Positions 39,001 through 48,000 of a DNA stretch of 64,000 nt are shown piece by piece. The stretch's first letter is position 1; each line of letters begins with the position of its first letter. This DNA is from Escherichia coli (GTDB lineage: Bacteria > Pseudomonadota > Gammaproteobacteria > Enterobacterales > Enterobacteriaceae). The position numbers were made by a program. The stretch lies in NCBI RefSeq assembly GCF_017348835.2, contig NZ_CP072315.1; one strand, given 5' to 3'.

Positions 39001-42000
39001 ATAATCAGCAAGATGTTCTTGCTGAAATGTTCAAAATGGATTTTCCTACAGATACTGTCTGTCAAATATCTCTGACTGCATTGCCAGACTTGACTTTACA
39101 GCTTAGTGCTTGGTCAGCTGTGCGAGGTGGGCGTATGACTGGGAACGATAAGCTTAAAGCAGATCTGCTTAATGGTTATCAGTTGGACTACTACGACAGA
39201 AGTATGCATAAGCCTTTAAAACCTGATCATGATAACCTTATGTTGAGGGATTTTCAGGTATGGATCTCGCTATCGATTCCTTTACAGTCTGCCCTTCCTA
39301 CCGAGCTGGAACATTCGCGTATCGATTCACTTTACTCTGAACTTGTAAGTAAGTTAATTACGATTGGACTGCATCCGATTAAGGTCGATGCAGAAAACTG
39401 GCTCTATTGTATAGATAAGGTCGTAAACCCCGGAAAGAACTCTCGGTGGGCTGAAGGTTTTATAGACGTTAACACTATGAAAAGGCTTAATGAACAAGTT
39501 AACGTTCCCGGCCGTAAGTATACAGTCACAGAAAATCATTTCTCATCAGTCACACAAAGTGACGACGAATCTGAGCATCGTTACTTCAAACAACTTTCCG
39601 TTGTAAAGTTTCCTGAATACGTCAATTTCGGTTGTATGTATGAGTTAGTAGTTAACTGGATGCATGGACGTAAGACAATTTTCAGCCCATTTATGATCAC
39701 TCAGACTGTTCAGTTTGCCGATCCGCTCAAGTTGTCAAAAGAAAACGTCCGCTACAAAGCAATCACTAATAAACAGGCAAGTATACCTTCAGTTGTCACA
39801 TTCTGCCCTCGCCTGCGGGATATGGATAATGACTACATGGCCGTAACTCGCGAGCTTGAGGATGGCGCAAAGCTTTTAAGAGGGTATCTTACTTTCACTG
39901 TTATGGGTAGTAATGCCAATTCTGTGCAGACAGCAGCTAACGATCTCAAATCCTTTTACCTCGAAAGCCGGGTCAAAGTAGCAGATGATTCCTTTATCGT
40001 TTTCCCGTCATTTATGTCATGTCTGCCAATGTGCAATGACCCAAAGACAATTTTCGACCTTGACCGATCCGAAGTAGTGAGCAACACCGGAGCGGCTCAT
40101 ATGACGCCGATCTTTGGGCCCTGGAAAGGTAATACAGATAGACCAGTACTGAGTTTAGTTTCTCGTGAAGGTCAACTCATGGGACTTGATATTTTCAAGA
40201 CTTCTGCAAGCTATAACATGGTTATTGGTGCAACGTCAGGTGCAGGCAAGTCATTCTGGACAGCATATCTAATCAATAACTATCTTGGAGCTGGACCGCG
40301 ATCTAATAACCTCGTTCATTATCGCTCAACATTTAAGCATTTTTTAGAAAACGAATACCCAGATGATGATCCTGATGGTGCTCAAGTTTTTGTAGTGGAC
40401 GTGGGGCGTTCTTACCAGGGGATTGCGGAACAATATACAAACAGTCAATTTATTGATTTCGGTAAAACCCCTGACTTCACCCTAAATCCCTTTGCCTTCC
40501 TAACTGACATCACTGTTAACGACGATGTATTTAACGAAGCACCTGAATTTACCGGTGAATCAACTTCAAACGATGCAGAAAAAGACAAAGTTGCTCAGAC
40601 CATAATGGTTCTGAATCAGCTAAAAATTATGGCTTCAGAGAAAGGCCTTATCGATGATTATCAACAATCAGTGATGCTTCAGCTTATTGCAGAAGAGTAC
40701 CAGGAATCCAGAAAATCAGGTCGGACCGGTTCAATAACCGGCTTTGCTCTGCGTTGCAAGAAGCATGAAGACAAACGTATAAAGGATATTGGGGAGCAAC
40801 TCGGAGCATGGTGCGAAGGTGGAATTTATGGGCACCGGTTTACCGATACGTTGCCTCCAATCAACTTCGACAGCAGATTTATTGTTTTGGAACTGGAGGA
40901 GCTAAAAGGCACCCCCCACCTTCAGACAGTTGTTTTAATGTCTATCATTCAGGCTGCTCAGCATGCAATGTTCATCAAAAAAGATGGGCGTCGTCGCTTG
41001 TTCATCCTAGATGAAGCTTGGGAGTACATTCGTCCTGATAATTCATCAGGTGCCGGAAATCAATCAAACCAATTCTTCTCTTCCTTCCTCGAAGCGGCAT
41101 GGCGTAGGTTCAGGAAAACAAACTGCGCTGGCATCTGTATCACACAGTCGTTTGAAGATTATTTTACTTCTTCTGTTGGCCGGGCCCTGACTGCTAACTC
41201 GCCTTGGAAGATAATCATGAAACAAGAAAAAGAAAGCATTGAAGCAATGAAGGCTAATAAATATTTTTCTACTTCAGATGCAGAATATGAACGAATGAAA
41301 AATATTCGTACAGTCAAAAAGGTGTTTTCAGAGATGTTAGTCAGGTTCGAAAACTTCCAAGAGATCTGTCGGTTATACGTAGACCGGAAAATGGAGCTTT
41401 GTTTTACTACGGATAGTGCTGACAGGAGTAAATTATGGGAAATTCAAAGCCGCGAGAATTGTAGCTATGGCGAGGCAATAGAAATTCTCTATGCTCAAGA
41501 AGTAGCAGCGGGTTTGGCCGCGTAGAGTAAATATCTTCAAGCAAAAACAATTAAACCAGATGTCTCATAAGAATCTGGTTTTTTATTGTATGCCTTAAGT
41601 AAACAAATGAGGTTATGACTTAATGAGTTCATCACTGTGCTGCAAATTTTGGTTTTATAATTAATATGGCTTAAAAACAGTGACATAATTACAAATCGCA
41701 TTTAGGTTGTGTACGCATTAAGTAAACAAAATTTATAACATCAATACTGACTTTATAAGATGAAATTCACGTAAATTACATTTTTGTTTACCAAAGGTAA
41801 TCAAAGGAGCGCGGCATTATTAGTGAAAACAGATCACTGGTGTCATATTGCATACAAAACTTAATATCCTTTAATCATTCTTCTAAAAGTTTAATATTAA
41901 CGCTTTGGTTTATGAAAATTTATCCAATTTGCTCACCGAAGACTTTTAACTTATTTAACCCCCTTTATCGCCAATCTGTGATTTTCTAATGTTAGCCTAC

Positions 42001-45000: not shown

Positions 45001-48000
45001 GGACTGACGACAACGATTCACAGTTAGGAAACGTAAATCAGCACACCGGTGAGATAGATTTTAGGGTCTAAGCAAGAAATAGGGTAGGCGTGAAGATTCA
45101 TTAATGGAGCTCATAACGTCAAAGCGTAGAGAAGTCGACAAGAATCGTGGTTTAAAAAGAATGAGCATTAGGTATGGACTAGAGAGTCTGAGCTCTCATC
45201 TGCAAGTTAAGCTCACAAAAAATCATAAAAAAGTAAACAAACATTAGCTTAGGATTGAAACAAAGGATAGAATTGTACGTATAACAATGAAATGGACGCA
45301 TTATGCGTAAAGTTTACATATATGCGTAAAAGTCGGTTTTCAGTGCAAAAAGGTCATAACCATGAATTTACTTGAAAAGATCGCCCTCGTTGGTCAGCGC
45401 ATGAAAAGCGAGCAGATTTCTCTTAAGGAATCTCTGATGGCTTCATCAAGAGTATCTGTTTCTGATGATAGTGTTGATGGTGTTGATAGACTGATCTACA
45501 ACCACTGTTTAAATAAAAAAAATCTCTCTGATTTTTTTGGGAAGTCACGAGTAACGTTCAATAAAATACTTTCGGACTTAGAAGAAAAAGAAGTTGTTGG
45601 TGCACCTATTTATCAAAACAAAAATCATCTTTACACCCGCTGGGATGTTCAAAAAATAATGGATGCCCTGGGTTATCCCAAGTACCGCGATCATTACTTT
45701 AGCAGAGCTATTGTTACTCAGAATCATAAAGGCGGTACAGGGAAAAGCACTACATCTGTAGCTTTAGCAGTAGCAGCTGCTTTAGATCTACAACTGAATG
45801 CACGTGTATTAATGATCGAATGGGACCCACAAGGTTCGATTGGAAGCAGCATGATTCAAAGTGTCTCAGAAGATGATGTCTTCCTTACAGCAATTGATGC
45901 AATCCTTGGAATTTATGAAGAAAATTCTGAGTATAAAAAATATTTAGATTCAGGATTCTCTGAAGAAGAAATCATCACTAATATGCCTTTTTCAACGCAT
46001 CTGCCAAACTTGGACGTGATAACGGCATTTCCGACAGATGCTCGTTTTAAAGATAAATACTGGCAATGTTCTAGAGAAGAACGAACGTCTTTGTTACTAC
46101 GTTTCAAGGAAGTTATCTTACCGGTACTGAAGCAGAACTATGATTTGATTATTATAGACACTCCACCTGAAGATTCACCTTTGATCTGGGCTGCTGACGA
46201 AGCGGCCGATGGGATTCTTGTCGCAGTGTCACCACGTGAATATGATTACGCCTCTACTACAGACTTCATGCTTACAATAAGTGAAAGGTTTAAACAATCA
46301 CCAAGTAAGGGCGATAATTTAAAATGGTTCAAAGTTCTTGCTGTCAATGTTGATGACAAAAGTCCATATGAAAGAATAGTTTTGGATAAATTAATCAGAA
46401 CTGTTCAGGACCTTTTGATGTCCGCTAACATAAAAAATTCTGAAGCATTTAAGGCAGCTGCTTCCAAAGGGCGTACAGTGCTTGATATCAAAAAATCAGA
46501 GGAACTTTGTTCCGCAAAGCAACTTGATGTCGCAGAAGAATCTGTATTACAGGTATATCAACAATTTATAAATGAAATAAAAAGTTTTTCAGCTAAGCAA
46601 GGAGTTAACGCATGAGCGATGAGCAACATATCGGGAATGATAAATCTCGATATTTAAACGCACCAAAGCGGACAGAAGTCGGTCACCGTTCAGGTCTTGC
46701 GGGTTTGAAAACAGCACCTCGCATAAAAAAGTTATTCACTCTTCATAAGGGCCGAAGACTTGAAGCGGAACATGTGATTGTTCCAGCCCAGAGAGTGGAG
46801 AAGGAGACCTTAGTCCATCCAGCAAACCCACGAAATCAAGAAGCCCTTACAGATTATTCTGTTAGAGATATTCTTAAGCAGATTGAAGAAAGAGGGGTCG
46901 ATACCGAAGGGATCGCTGTAAAAAGAGATGGGGTTTATTTATTAATAGAAGGAAGTCGCAGACGTTTCTGCTGTATAAAGGCAGAAAAGGATCTCCCCCT
47001 GTGGGTACTACCGGATGAACTAACCGAAGATGATATAAATTCAATTATATCCGCAGCACAAACATCTCGAAAATTTTCATATAGAGAAGTTGGGTTTCAA
47101 TTTATCAAGAAAATGGAAGAAAAGGGATTTTCTACTAATGAAGAACTCGCAGCATATCTTGGGATTAGTCATGTATCGGTAGCCAAAAGAATCCAGGCGG
47201 CACGTATTGACGAAACATTGATCTCTTTATTCCCGGATTATGAAGGAATACCGAACTCCTATTATAGTCGCTTGTCTCGTTTACAGAAATATGTGCAAAA
47301 AAATCTATTTCCTTTAGATGAAGTAATAGATAATGTTAAAGAGGAAACAAAAGATTTAGACATTGGAGATCTCCAAGTTGCCCAAAAAGTTGTAATGGAG
47401 AAAATCACACAATCTGTGGAAAGTGTTTGTGAAAAATCTTATTCCACAAAATGGGAAACAAGTGATCTTATTACTTTTGATAACAAAGATAAGTATGCAA
47501 GAATCAGTAAAAACAATACTGGAAGAAAAATTCGCATTGAATTCAATAGGATAAGTGCGGGTTTTATTAAGGAGCTAGAGGAGTTCATAAAAGAAAAATT
47601 AAAAGTATCAGAATAAATATTGAACTGCATCTTTATGATGCAGTTCATATGATTTATATTTTTAATTTCTTGTTATATTAATATGGGGTGTGCGCAGGTT
47701 CAGACATATAAGGTCTTAGTTCTATATGAACAGAAGCGCCATTCCCATCATTTACTACGTTTAAAGGTGCTTTGCCCGGCAATGACATAGTTGCAACGTC
47801 AGGTCCAGAAACAGCAAAATTATTTTCTGCTGAAGGCATTACTGTAAAAATCTTTATAGCAACATTTTCATGTCTAAATAAAGAAATCCCAAAAGTAGAA
47901 CCAGCTTCGGTATTGCTCACGTCCACAACCACAGGGGTTTTTCCTAGATATTCATTAGTTAGTATGTTTTTTACTAATGCCCCTTCCGGGACAGTATAGA

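What the first reader, a model, noticed from the sequence alone, without database searches (positions are those of the whole stretch)
41950..45020. 3-kb array of ~13 x 250-bp repeats with P1-parS-like BoxA/BoxB words and a 1.7-kb higher-order repeat, upstream of parA
The units are 232-255 bp long and diverged by substitutions and indels. That rules out conserved ORFs, so the ORF-track entries here look like artefacts. The most conserved 30-mer, cagATTTAACccccttaaTCGCCAaactgg, contains a 6/7 match to the P1 parS BoxA heptamer (ATTTCAC) and an exact BoxB hexamer (TCGCCA), as I remember those sites. A second BoxA-like word (gagATTTAATCagg / gagATTTTATCagg) occurs once per unit. Segment 41956-42413, including an atypical unit containing ..gacgtcatta.gggta..taagatttaggctaagcagg.., reappears at 43661-44123. 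So a block of about 7 units (~1705 bp) has itself been duplicated. The adjacent ParA/ParB pair is type Ia. A centromere of 13 widely spaced sites covering 3 kb would be unusually large compared with F sopC (12 x 43 bp) or the single P1 parS. The array could also be the classical non-replicon incompatibility determinant.
Basis: partly seen in the sequence, partly recalled or inferred. Interest (0 to 1): 0.65.

Follow-up and report, generated by a model that had tools for sequence, protein, structure and literature searches.

The report
IncHI2 plasmid centromere repeat array
The 3-kb block of thirteen ~250-bp repeats is most likely the centromere of a large IncHI2 resistance plasmid: each repeat carries one 20-bp site for the plasmid's P1-type ParB protein, relatives carry the same site in much shorter repeats, and it is an unusual-looking version of a known kind of element.

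Summary
Window 41946-45030 holds 13 head-to-tail units of 227-258 bp, the last one truncated. All carry the word (G)ATTTAACCCCCTTAATCGCCA on the + strand. This word occurs nowhere else in the 64 kb (11 hits against 0.01 expected). A 1.7-kb higher-order duplication is also real.

The window is IncHI2 plasmid backbone. The array fills the trhC-parA gap, upstream of a type Ia parA and a P1-type parB.

The decisive evidence is comparative. R27 (IncHI1) and other relatives carry the identical ~20-bp core next to parAB, but in 52-56-bp units with unrelated spacers. Klebsiella relatives have 66-67-bp units with a changed core, AAAACAACCCCCTTGTTCGCAG. A Providencia plasmid has single cores on each side of parAB. 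Core changes track changes in the ParB recognition helix and C-terminal domain. The core has the layout of P1 'parS-small' (A2, inverted A3, B2).

The array is therefore very probably the ParB-binding centromere, though no binding was tested. The spacers show no coding signal, no RNA-family match, and no homologue outside IncHI2.

Unit number varies among the nine IncHI2 records measured, from about 3 to 22. Large arrays are normal in this family; only the 249-bp period is peculiar to IncHI2. The palindrome after parB is a terminator. Interest is moderate.

The parts
41946..45030 (+). Whole array: 13 tandem units of 227-258 bp (last truncated), ~50% G+C inside a 31-40% G+C neighbourhood
41946..43651 (+). 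Higher-order block 1 (units U1-U7)
   Evidence: colinear with block 2 at 85.6% over 1310 nt
43652..45030 (+). Higher-order block 2 (units U8-U13)
   Evidence: same layout in R478
41952..41973 (+). Core of U1: TATTTAACCCCCTTTATCGCCA (near-consensus)
42186..42208 (+). Degenerate core of atypical unit U2: GGAATTAACTCCTTTATCGCCAT
42414..42435 (+). Core of U3: GATTTAACCCCCTTAATCGCCA (consensus; proposed ParB site laid out as A-box, C-tract, inverted A-box, B-box)
   Evidence: P1 comparison
42663..42684 (+). Core of U4 (consensus)
42921..42942 (+). Core of U5 (consensus)
43170..43191 (+). Core of U6 (consensus)
43410..43431 (+). Core of U7 (B-box TCTCCA, one change)
43658..43679 (+). Core of U8 (consensus)
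43893..43914 (+). Degenerate core of atypical unit U9: GATTAAAACCCTTTATTCGCCA
44120..44141 (+). Core of U10 (consensus)
44369..44390 (+). Core of U11 (TATTTAACTCCCTTAATCGCCA)
44618..44639 (+). Core of U12 (AATTTAAC...)
44867..44888 (+). Core of U13 (consensus; unit truncated after ~170 bp)
42518..42539 (+). Example (in U3) of the second-best conserved block of the unit, TGATACAGATTAACGTCATATT, holding a lone A-box-like GATTAAC ~104 bp after the core; function unknown
41553..41585 (+). Hairpin plus U-run after trhC (likely terminator, so the array is probably not read through from Tra2)
   Evidence: z = -3.9
45296..45330 (+). parA operator-like repeats: TATGCGTAAA twice, plus palindrome ACGCATTATGCGT, just upstream of parA
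   Evidence: equivalent repeats before parA in R27, L024 and L042
45362..46615 (+). parA: 417-aa long-form (type Ia) Walker ATPase
46612..47616 (+). parB: 334 aa, P1-type, with GSRRR motif, helix-turn-helix and C-terminal PF08775 domain
47621..47647 (.). 11-bp-stem palindrome between convergent parB and the 47678-48067(-) ORF: bidirectional terminator-like, not a centromere candidate

Best explanation
The array is the cis-acting centromere (parS) of the main partition system of IncHI2 plasmids, the type Ia ParA/ParB pair called Par1 in R27.

Each unit offers one ~20-bp ParB site, TTAAC-CCCC-TTAAT-CGCCA. The proposed reading is as follows. The two helix-turn-helix domains of a ParB dimer read the imperfect inverted repeat TTAA..TTAA, whose arms lie about one helical turn apart. 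The C-terminal dimer domain reads the abutting TCGCCA. This is how P1 ParB reads the A2-A3-B2 'parS-small' part of its site.

ParB loaded at about a dozen sites would build a large partition complex; its GSRRR motif suggests the usual nucleotide-dependent spreading. ParA-ATP on the nucleoid then moves that complex apart. The same sites would exert partition incompatibility against any plasmid whose ParB reads the same core, which probably includes IncHI1.

The ~227-bp spacers appear to be mostly passenger DNA. They are amplified with the site and kept similar by unequal crossing-over, which also changes the unit number.

Shown here: the array, core conservation, linkage to parAB across relatives, fixed orientation, co-variation with ParB, ParB homology to P1 ParB, absence of coding or RNA signal, and copy-number variation.

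Inferred: binding, centromere activity, incompatibility, and neutrality of the spacers.
For: 1. Location. The array fills the non-coding trhC-parA gap directly upstream of parA-parB in an IncHI2 backbone.

2. ParB type. Residues 150-330 match P1 ParB(142-333), PDB 1zx4 and 2ntz, at E = 4e-16, and Pfam PF08775 at 4e-11. ParA is a 417-aa long form that matches V. cholerae ParA2-like 7npd (4e-37) and P1 ParA 3ez2 (3e-12).

3. Core layout. P1 A2-A3-B2 is ATTTCAAGGTGAAATCGCCA, against ATTTAACCCCCTTAATCGCCA here. A2-A3-B2 is the part of P1 parS sufficient for ParB binding, and BoxB is the specificity element (PMC10999674).

4. The same core sits in different repeats next to parAB in relatives.
- R27: 52-54-bp units, about 28 sites.
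- pCF10: 54 bp x 9.
- Kluyvera and Serratia: 56 bp x 7.
- The IncHI2 spacer has no detectable similarity to the R27 unit. It has no homologue outside the ~1127 IncHI2 records in PLSDB.

5. Changed core in more distant relatives.
- The Klebsiella plasmids (ParB 47-49% identical) have 66-67-bp units with AAAACAACCCCCTTGTTCGCAG, upstream of parA and downstream of parB.
- The Providencia plasmid (ParB 55%) has no array, but single AAAACAACCCCCTTGTTCGCCA-type sites upstream of parA and downstream of parB.

6. Co-variation with ParB.
- The A-arm type (TTAA or AACAA) goes with the recognition helix S-HV-SV-(A/S)-KR or x-xE-S(V/I)-R-KR respectively.
- The B-box end (CGCCA or CGCAG) goes with GRK(I/V)R..FEFNR or GQKVS..FEFKR respectively. 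P1, which has CGCCA, has GR...EFNR.
- The aspartate that P1 uses to read B-box base 2 (role per PMC10999674; assigned to this alignment column by my own residue count) falls at an invariant D, matching the invariant TCGC.

7. All cores point the same way relative to parAB in every relative, and so does the P1 right arm.

8. The core is significantly the most conserved part of the unit and is absent from the rest of the window.

9. The R27 type I system is reported as that plasmid's major stability determinant (PMC4489591).
Against: - No binding, stabilisation or incompatibility experiment is available to me. The primary papers on R27 Par1 and on R478 are not in the held library.
- Between the two IncHI2 lineages compared, orthologous cores are not measurably better conserved than spacers (4.8% against 5.4% different, not significant). 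The case therefore rests on paralogous and cross-family conservation.
- Co-variation rests on only three or four independent lineages.
- The unit holds a second conserved block (TGATACAGATTAACGTCA) that this explanation does not need.
- One complete IncHI2 record has only three units, and a Providencia relative manages with single sites. The large copy number is therefore not obviously required.
- Unlike P1 parS, the unit has no IHF consensus.
Confidence: 0.8

Rival explanations
1. Only one or a few sites are the working centromere. The rest of the array is selfish or neutral satellite DNA that expands and contracts by unequal recombination, without adding to partition.
For: - Unit number ranges from about 3 to about 22 among complete IncHI2 records.
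- IS3-family elements sit in the trhC-parA gap of two plasmids.
- A Providencia relative has single sites.
- Spacers and cores drift at the rate of the non-coding flanks between lineages.
- Units are replaced or converted between the window and R478.
Against: - Arrays of 7 to more than 50 sites were found beside parAB in six of the seven core/unit-length lineages examined (52-54, 54, 56, 66, 67 and 249 bp). The same core also recurs at ~55-58-bp and 110-bp spacings in metagenome contigs. That is hard to explain without some benefit of multiplicity.
- R478 and the window lineage keep the same 13-unit layout despite ~5% divergence.
- Cores stay intact in 10 or 11 of the 13 units.
- The shortest arrays may be short-read assembly collapses.
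Confidence: 0.12
2. Each 249-bp unit is a composite site rather than a core plus junk. The distal conserved block (lone A-box-like GATTAAC ~104 bp from the core), or another spacer element, binds a second ParB domain or a host or plasmid factor. Each unit would then form a looped or wrapped complex, as the IHF-bent bipartite P1 parS does.
For: - TGATACAGATTAACGTCA is the second-best conserved 22-column window over 12 units, with a mean majority fraction of 0.86 against 0.78 for the non-core part of the unit. It is recognisable even in the divergent units U1, U8 and U13.
- GATTAA equals the reverse complement of the core's right arm.
- P1 ParB is known to use extra A and B boxes on a second arm (annotation; PMC10999674).
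Against: - There is no second B-box and no IHF consensus in the unit.
- Relatives with the identical core and 71-74% identical ParB have 52-56-bp units with no room for such an element.
- The block could simply be younger or slower-drifting sequence.
Confidence: 0.06
3. The array is not a centromere. It would be either the remains of a repeat-protein gene, a set of replication iterons, or a binding array for a transfer or silencing regulator between the Tra2 genes and par.
For: - The 249-bp consensus is open in one minus-strand frame, and several unit lengths are multiples of three.
- The array lies inside the Tra2 region, and an 11-mer (AAGTAAACAAA) brackets it.
Against: - An open 83-codon frame is expected in about 1 of 10 such units by chance.
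- Variable columns show no codon periodicity (42/40/42), and R478 units are 247, 248 and 250 bp.
- The actual sequence has no ORF above 91 aa.
- The same core lies in 52-, 54- and 56-bp units that cannot encode a shared protein.
- No rep gene is adjacent.
- The core travels with parAB even in a non-IncHI Providencia plasmid that lacks the Tra2 context.
- There is no Rfam match.
Confidence: 0.02

Closest known systems
P1 parS (P1par family centromere; P1, P7, pMT1, pWR100)
   Same: - ParB is homologous over the helix-turn-helix and C-terminal DNA-binding domains.
- The core has the order and overlap of P1 parS-small: a forward A-type word, an inverted A-type word, then TCGCCA sharing the last T.
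- The B-box hexamer is identical.
- Orientation relative to parAB is the same.
- B-box variation between relatives (CGCCA or CGCAG) parallels the P1/P7/pMT1 specificity logic (PMC10999674).
   Different: - P1 parS is a single ~80-bp bipartite site with an IHF site, downstream of parB. Here there are 13 simple sites with no IHF consensus, 227-258 bp apart, upstream of parA.
- The A words differ (TTAAC/TTAAT against ATTTCAC).
- ParB is only 28% identical to P1 ParB.
- ParA is closer to V. cholerae ParA2 than to P1 ParA.
IncHI1 plasmid R27 Par1 locus (parA, parB and the repeats between trhC and parA)
   Same: - Gene order is the same (trhC, repeats, parA, parB, then parM/parR further on).
- The 21-bp core is identical (18 exact copies, about 28 sites).
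- ParB is 71% identical, with a near-identical recognition helix.
[quoted passage not shown]
- From memory only, not verified: Lawley and Taylor 2003 pointed to the upstream direct repeats as the cis site and incompatibility determinant.
   Different: - Units are 52-54 bp, in two blocks split by a ~650-bp insert.
- The spacer sequence is unrelated to the IncHI2 spacer.
F plasmid sopC
   Same: Tandem direct repeats, each with one binding site for a type Ia ParB-class protein (SopB), all in one orientation and adjacent to the operon. Repeat number can be reduced with retained function. This comparison rests on established knowledge and was not tested here.
   Different: sopC is 12 x 43 bp (0.5 kb), lies downstream of sopB, and each site is a 16-bp inverted repeat read by the helix-turn-helix only. 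SopB lacks the P1-type B-box-reading domain. The IncHI2 period is about six times longer and shows a higher-order repeat.

Membership tests
Type Ia ParABS partition locus | Long-form Walker-type ParA (~400 aa) with an N-terminal extension or DNA-binding region | tested here: met
   The protein is 417 aa. The ATPase core starts near residue 110 (Pfam AAA_31 115-308). The alignment to the long ParAs 7npd and P1 3ez2 begins at residues 63-66.
Type Ia ParABS partition locus | ParB with an N-terminal arginine-patch (GxRRxx) motif and a central helix-turn-helix | tested here: met
   LIEGSRRRF aligns with P1 LDGSRRRA. The helix-turn-helix GISHVSVAKRIQAA aligns with P1 GLSQAKVTRALQAA. TIGR00180 scores 47 bits, which is below its 58-bit cut-off.
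Type Ia ParABS partition locus | A cis-acting ParB-binding centromere adjacent to the operon | tested here: inconclusive
   The comparative evidence is strong. There are no binding or stability data.
P1par family | ParB C-terminal dimerisation and B-box-binding domain (Pfam PF08775), homologous to P1 ParB 275-333 | tested here: met
   PF08775 at E = 3.8e-11, 43.8 bits against a 25-bit cut-off, residues 207-330. PDB 1zx4 at E = 3.6e-16 over residues 150-330.
P1par family | parS built of heptamer A boxes and hexamer B boxes | tested here: inconclusive
   The B hexamer TCGCCA is exact, and the A-like words lie in the P1 A2/A3 arrangement. However, the first three bases of the 'heptamer' are not conserved in relatives, and recognition is not shown.
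P1par family | Bipartite site with a central IHF-binding site | tested here: not met
   No match of 8 or more of the 9 defined positions to WATCAANNNNTTR on either strand of the unit consensus, and no second B-box.
P1par family | Single parS immediately downstream of parB | tested here: not met
   There are 13 sites upstream of parA and none downstream. The Klebsiella and Providencia relatives do also have sites downstream of parB.
sopC-like tandem-repeat centromere | Head-to-tail direct repeats, one binding site per repeat, all in one orientation | tested here: met
sopC-like tandem-repeat centromere | Short period (about 40-70 bp, a few helical turns) | tested here: not met
   The period here is 249 bp. 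The IncHI relatives do meet this feature, at 52-67 bp.
Replication iterons | Repeats adjacent to, and bound by, a Rep initiator or origin | tested here: not met
   No rep gene is adjacent. The core is absent from the rest of the 64-kb window. It follows parAB, not rep, across relatives.

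The most novel reading that the evidence does not exclude
The 249-bp unit is not 'site plus filler' but a repeating composite centromere module. ParB bound at the core would also engage the conserved distal GATTAAC block ~104 bp away, or a second factor would bind there. 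Each unit would then be looped or wrapped, and the array would form a regularly spaced, nucleosome-like partition complex. This would be a different way of reaching the bent, bridged geometry that P1 obtains with IHF. A related, more modest reading is that the identical cores of IncHI1 and IncHI2 make the centromere a shared incompatibility determinant of the IncHI group.
Probability: 0.1. Interest if true: 0.6.

Novelty: new variant of a known kind. Interest (0 to 1): 0.38.

Why it matters
IncHI2 plasmids (more than 1100 complete records in PLSDB) are major carriers of resistance genes such as mcr-1, mcr-9 and blaCTX-M (the last per PMC7355605 and PMC10044134 abstracts; the mcr genes also appear in record names). 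Their stable inheritance depends on partition.

Three practical points follow from pinning the centromere to a 20-bp core repeated at 249-bp intervals:
- It gives a defined target for ParB binding, curing and incompatibility experiments.
- It predicts which IncHI subgroups should cross-react. IncHI1, pNDM-CIT-like and IncHI2 share the core; the Klebsiella IncHI types do not.
- It flags a 3-kb VNTR-like region that is easily collapsed in short-read assemblies.

For partition biology, this is a natural series of one P1-type site in several formats: single copy, 52-67-bp arrays, a 110-bp dimeric array, and a 249-bp array with a 1.7-kb higher-order repeat. Such a series is useful for asking what site number and spacing contribute.

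Tried and rejected
- **Coding repeat.** The consensus unit is open in one minus-strand frame. There is no codon periodicity of variation, the R478 units are not multiples of three, and no real ORF exceeds 91 aa. Rejected.
- **Structured RNA.** There is no Rfam match at E <= 1 in 41400-45400.
- **The 249-bp unit as a decayed multimer of R27-like 52-bp units.** Local alignment of the spacer against the R27 unit scores below the shuffle mean. This is not supported at sequence level, although a metagenomic 110-bp dimeric array shows the route exists.
- **IHF site in the unit.** None found.
- **Promoters and terminators in the array.** Counts are no higher than in shuffles.
- **Palindrome 47621-47647 as centromere.** It is a terminator-like hairpin between convergent genes with no core similarity.
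- **Origin of the spacer.** blastn of one spacer against PLSDB finds only IncHI2 records.
- **Core against spacer conservation between orthologous units of the window and R478.** No difference.
- **Literature.** Lawley and Taylor 2003, Sherburne 2000 and Dabrazhynetskaya 2005 are not held. Eight full-text searches found no description of the IncHI2 array or its core. The R27 'incC' stability repeats belong to the FIA-like replicon and are a different element.
- **Technical.** Loci fetched in parallel were not copied to the script machine. I worked around this by passing them through an alignment.

Full report
**What is there**

The window matches many Salmonella, E. coli and Enterobacter IncHI2A plasmids at 100% identity. 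The annotated neighbours are trhB, htdT, trhV and a TraC-family gene (trhC) on one side. On the other side are ParA, ParB, four small genes, parM, and the gene after it. R478 has the same order.

Between the end of trhC (41525) and the start of parA (45362) lie 3836 bp without annotated genes.

Tandem Repeats Finder reports a 249-bp period over 42404-44982. Anchoring on the conserved word and aligning gives 13 units from 41946 to 45030, of 227-258 bp, the last truncated. The array is ~50% G+C, against 31-40% on either side.

The word TTAACCCCCTTAATCGCCA (up to 3 mismatches) occurs 11 times. All copies are on the + strand and inside the array, against 0.01 expected. Units U2 and U9 carry degenerate versions.

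Within the array the 22-bp core is the best-conserved stretch: 13 of 22 columns are invariant, against 34 of 227 elsewhere (p = 1e-5).

The units fall into four subfamilies:
- U3, U5, U10, U11, U12: 86-94% identical to each other.
- U4, U6, U7: about 81%.
- The short U1 and U8: 85%.
- The atypical U2 and U9: 82% to each other, about 55% to the rest.

The order U1-U2-U3... recurs as U8-U9-U10..., at 85.6% over 1310 nt with a period of 1706 bp. R478 shares the 13-unit layout, so the duplication predates the split of these two IncHI2 lineages.

**Not a gene, not an RNA**

The largest ORF in the array is 91 aa. The consensus unit happens to be open in one minus-strand frame, which is expected about one time in ten. 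Variable columns are spread 42/40/42 over the three codon phases, and R478 units measure 247, 248 and 250 bp. Rfam finds nothing at E <= 1. Promoter-like and terminator-like matches are no more frequent than in shuffles.

A good hairpin with a U-run follows trhC. Operator-like repeats sit just before parA. The array therefore lies between a terminator and the par promoter.

**The proteins next door**

ParB (334 aa) matches the DNA-binding half of P1 ParB (PDB 1zx4 and 2ntz, residues 150-330, E = 4e-16) and Pfam PF08775, the P1-type C-terminal domain. It keeps the GSRRR motif and the helix-turn-helix.

ParA (417 aa) is a long-form Walker ATPase. Its best solved relatives are 7npd (4e-37) and P1 and P7 ParA (about 3e-12).

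**Comparison with P1**

The annotated P1 record gives parS as B1 TCGCCA, A1 ATTTCAC, an IHF site, A2 ATTTCAA, inverted A3, B2 TCGCCA and A4.

The right-arm string ATTTCAAGGTGAAATCGCCA and the IncHI2 core ATTTAACCCCCTTAATCGCCA share one layout. A forward A-type word is followed by an inverted A-type word about one helical turn away. An identical B hexamer then overlaps its last T.

A2-A3-B2 ('parS-small') is the part sufficient for P1 ParB binding. BoxB is the specificity element (PMC10999674).

**The comparative evidence, which carries the argument**

| Plasmid or contig | ParB identity to window | Unit and copies | Core |
|---|---|---|---|
| R27 (IncHI1) | 71% | 52-54 bp, about 28 sites in two blocks, in the same trhC-parA gap | identical 21-bp core (18 exact copies) |
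| Citrobacter pNDM-CIT-like plasmid | 74% | 54 bp x 9 | same core |
| Kluyvera and Serratia contigs | 72% | 56 bp x 7 | CACTTAACCCCCTTAATCGCCAG |
| Metagenome contig L042 | not determined | 110-bp dimeric unit | canonical core alternating with a degenerate one |
| Two Klebsiella plasmids | 47-49% | 66- and 67-bp units: about 21-28 and about 37-42 copies upstream of parA, plus 3 and 15 downstream of parB | AAAACAACCCCCTTGTTCGCAG |
| Providencia plasmid (not IncHI, no Tra2 context) | 55% | no array; one site upstream of parA and one downstream of parB | AAAACAACCCCCTTGTTCGCCA and AAAACCACCCCCTTGTTCGCCA |

In every case the sites point the same way relative to parAB, as does the P1 right arm.

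The IncHI2 spacer has no detectable similarity to the R27 unit. It has no homologue outside the ~1127 IncHI2 records of PLSDB.

What is conserved across the family is therefore the ~20-bp core and its linkage to parAB. Unit length and spacer sequence are free to vary.

**Co-variation**

In the ParB alignment, plasmids with TTAA arms have the recognition helix S-H-V-S-V-(A/S)-K-R. Plasmids with AACAA/TTGTT arms (Providencia and both Klebsiella types) have x-x-E-S-(V/I)-R-K-R.

Plasmids with a B-box ending CGCCA (IncHI1, IncHI2, pCF10, Providencia) have G-R-K-(I/V)-R...F-E-F-N-R. P1, with the same B-box, has G-R...E-F-N-R. The two plasmids with CGCAG have G-Q-K-V-S...F-E-F-K-R.

Providencia combines the A arms of one group with the B-box of the other, and its protein does the same. 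An aspartate in P1 ParB reads base 2 of BoxB (PMC10999674); by my own residue count it falls at an invariant D of the alignment, matching the invariant TCGC.

This is only three or four independent lineages. It is nonetheless the pattern expected if the helix-turn-helix reads the arms and the C-terminal domain reads the hexamer.

**Variation within IncHI2**

| Record | trhC-parA gap (bp) | Approximate units |
|---|---|---|
| window | 3836 | 13 |
| R478, pA2504mcr-9 | 3838 | 13 |
| pMCR_1085_C1 | 4337 | 15 |
| pYD786-1 | 6104 | 22 |
| pNCYU-26-73-1 | about 3590 | 12 |
| pUR-EC3.2 | 2386 | 7 |
| pSH111_227 | 1383 | 3 |

In pSH111_227 a U3 head is fused to a U13 tail exactly at the core. Two plasmids carry an IS3-family element in the gap. 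Some of the short versions may be assembly collapses, which I cannot tell.

Between the window and R478, trhC, parA and parB differ by 0.7-1.6%. The non-coding flanks differ by about 4%. Clearly orthologous units differ by 3-7%, and three or four units have been replaced.

In those orthologous units, cores (4.8% different) are no better conserved than spacers (5.4%). At this short range the array drifts like other non-coding DNA. The constraint on the core shows only over longer distances.

**Best explanation**

The array is the centromere of the main IncHI2 partition system, with one P1-type parS-small-like ParB site per unit. The spacers are amplified along with the sites and turned over by unequal recombination.

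It should also act as a partition-incompatibility determinant. Because IncHI1 and IncHI2 share the core and near-identical DNA-reading residues, it is a candidate contributor to their mutual incompatibility. That last point is inference only.

The R27 type I system is reported to be that plasmid's major stability determinant (PMC4489591; PMC12317039).

I put the centromere reading at about 0.8. What is shown is sequence, linkage, conservation, co-variation and homology. What is inferred is binding and function.

**Rivals**

- Most sites may be dispensable satellite around a few working ones (0.12).
- The unit may be a composite site using the distal conserved GATTAAC block (0.06).
- It may not be a centromere at all: a coding remnant, iterons, or a regulator array (0.02).

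**What is known and what is new**

This is a ParABS centromere, a known kind of element. It behaves like sopC in being a one-orientation tandem array, and like P1 parS in site grammar and ParB type.

It fails three P1par defining features: a single site, an IHF-bent bipartite form, and a position downstream of parB. It also fails the short-period feature of sopC-like arrays.

From memory, the direct repeats upstream of parA in R27 were already proposed as the cis site in 2003, and the R478 genome paper may mention the repeats. I could not read either paper. Eight full-text searches of the held library found no description of the IncHI2 array.

The following appear not to be common knowledge:
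- the 249-bp period with a 1.7-kb higher-order repeat;
- the family-wide series of formats around one core;
- the A-arm and B-box co-variation with ParB.

I rate this a new variant of a known kind, of moderate interest.

Noticed in passing
window 41597-41607, 41720-41730, 45231-45241 (+): The 11-mer AAGTAAACAAA occurs exactly three times in the 64-kb window. All three copies are on the + strand and bracket the array, two in the left flank and one in the right flank before parA. The expectation is 0.07. It may be a protein-binding word; its function is unknown.
   Followed up: partly
window 41553-41585 (+): Stable hairpin followed by a U-run just after trhC (-16.6 kcal/mol, z = -3.9). It is a likely terminator that isolates the array from Tra2 transcription.
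   Followed up: partly
window 45296-45330 (+): TATGCGTAAA is repeated twice 19 bp apart and overlaps the palindrome ACGCATTATGCGT, directly upstream of parA. This is probably the ParA operator and promoter. Similar repeats precede parA in R27 (L003 25381-25426), L024 and L042.
   Followed up: partly
window 47621-47647: Palindrome with an 11-bp stem, TGAACTGCATC-TTTAT-GATGCAGTTCA, between convergent parB and the ORF 47678-48067(-). It scores as terminator-like on both strands.
   Followed up: yes
L033 (NC_019114.1, pSH111_227) 4060-4700: This complete IncHI2 record has only three units. A U3 head is joined to the U13 tail at the core, a 2.45-kb loss relative to the window. It is either a real recombinational deletion or a short-read assembly collapse.
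   Followed up: partly
L042 (metagenome contig Ga0207655_1000075) 5154-5840: This array has a 110-bp dimeric unit. The canonical core GATTTAACCCCCTTAATCGCCAG alternates with the degenerate GAATTACCCCCTTAATCGTCAG. It is a living example of how longer-period units can arise from short ones.
   Followed up: partly
L003 (R27) 26870-27450: The R27 repeat array is split into two blocks by a ~650-bp A+T-rich insert that contains a short possible ORF.
   Followed up: no
L007 and L008 (Klebsiella plasmids): In these plasmids the parAB locus has repeat arrays on both sides. It is embedded among several 2.4-kb Ig-like-domain genes rather than Tra2 genes.
   Followed up: no
NZ_OU015329.1 and NZ_CP155524.1 (hits H101, H117): An IS3-family element (~1.2 kb) is inserted in the trhC-parA gap of two otherwise identical IncHI2 plasmids. 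The exact insertion point relative to the units was not examined.
   Followed up: no
L014 (CP169086.1, Enterobacter hormaechei B17-3 'chromosome'): A record labelled as a chromosome carries the IncHI2 par locus with 100% identical ParB and a 249-bp array of about 7 units. This is either an integrated plasmid or a mis-assembly.
   Followed up: no
window 45362-46615: The best solved relative of ParA is the V. cholerae ParA2-like entry 7npd (E = 4e-37), far ahead of P1 ParA (3e-12), although ParB is P1-type.
   Followed up: no
window 42180-42407 and 43887-44113 (units U2, U9): These two atypical units are about 55% identical to the others but 82% identical to each other, and are conserved in R478 and other IncHI2 plasmids. 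They have degenerate cores and distinctive content (GACGTCATTA, TAAGATTTAGGCTAAGCAGG, GATCCCCGCTCCCGGG). Their origin and role are unknown.
   Followed up: partly
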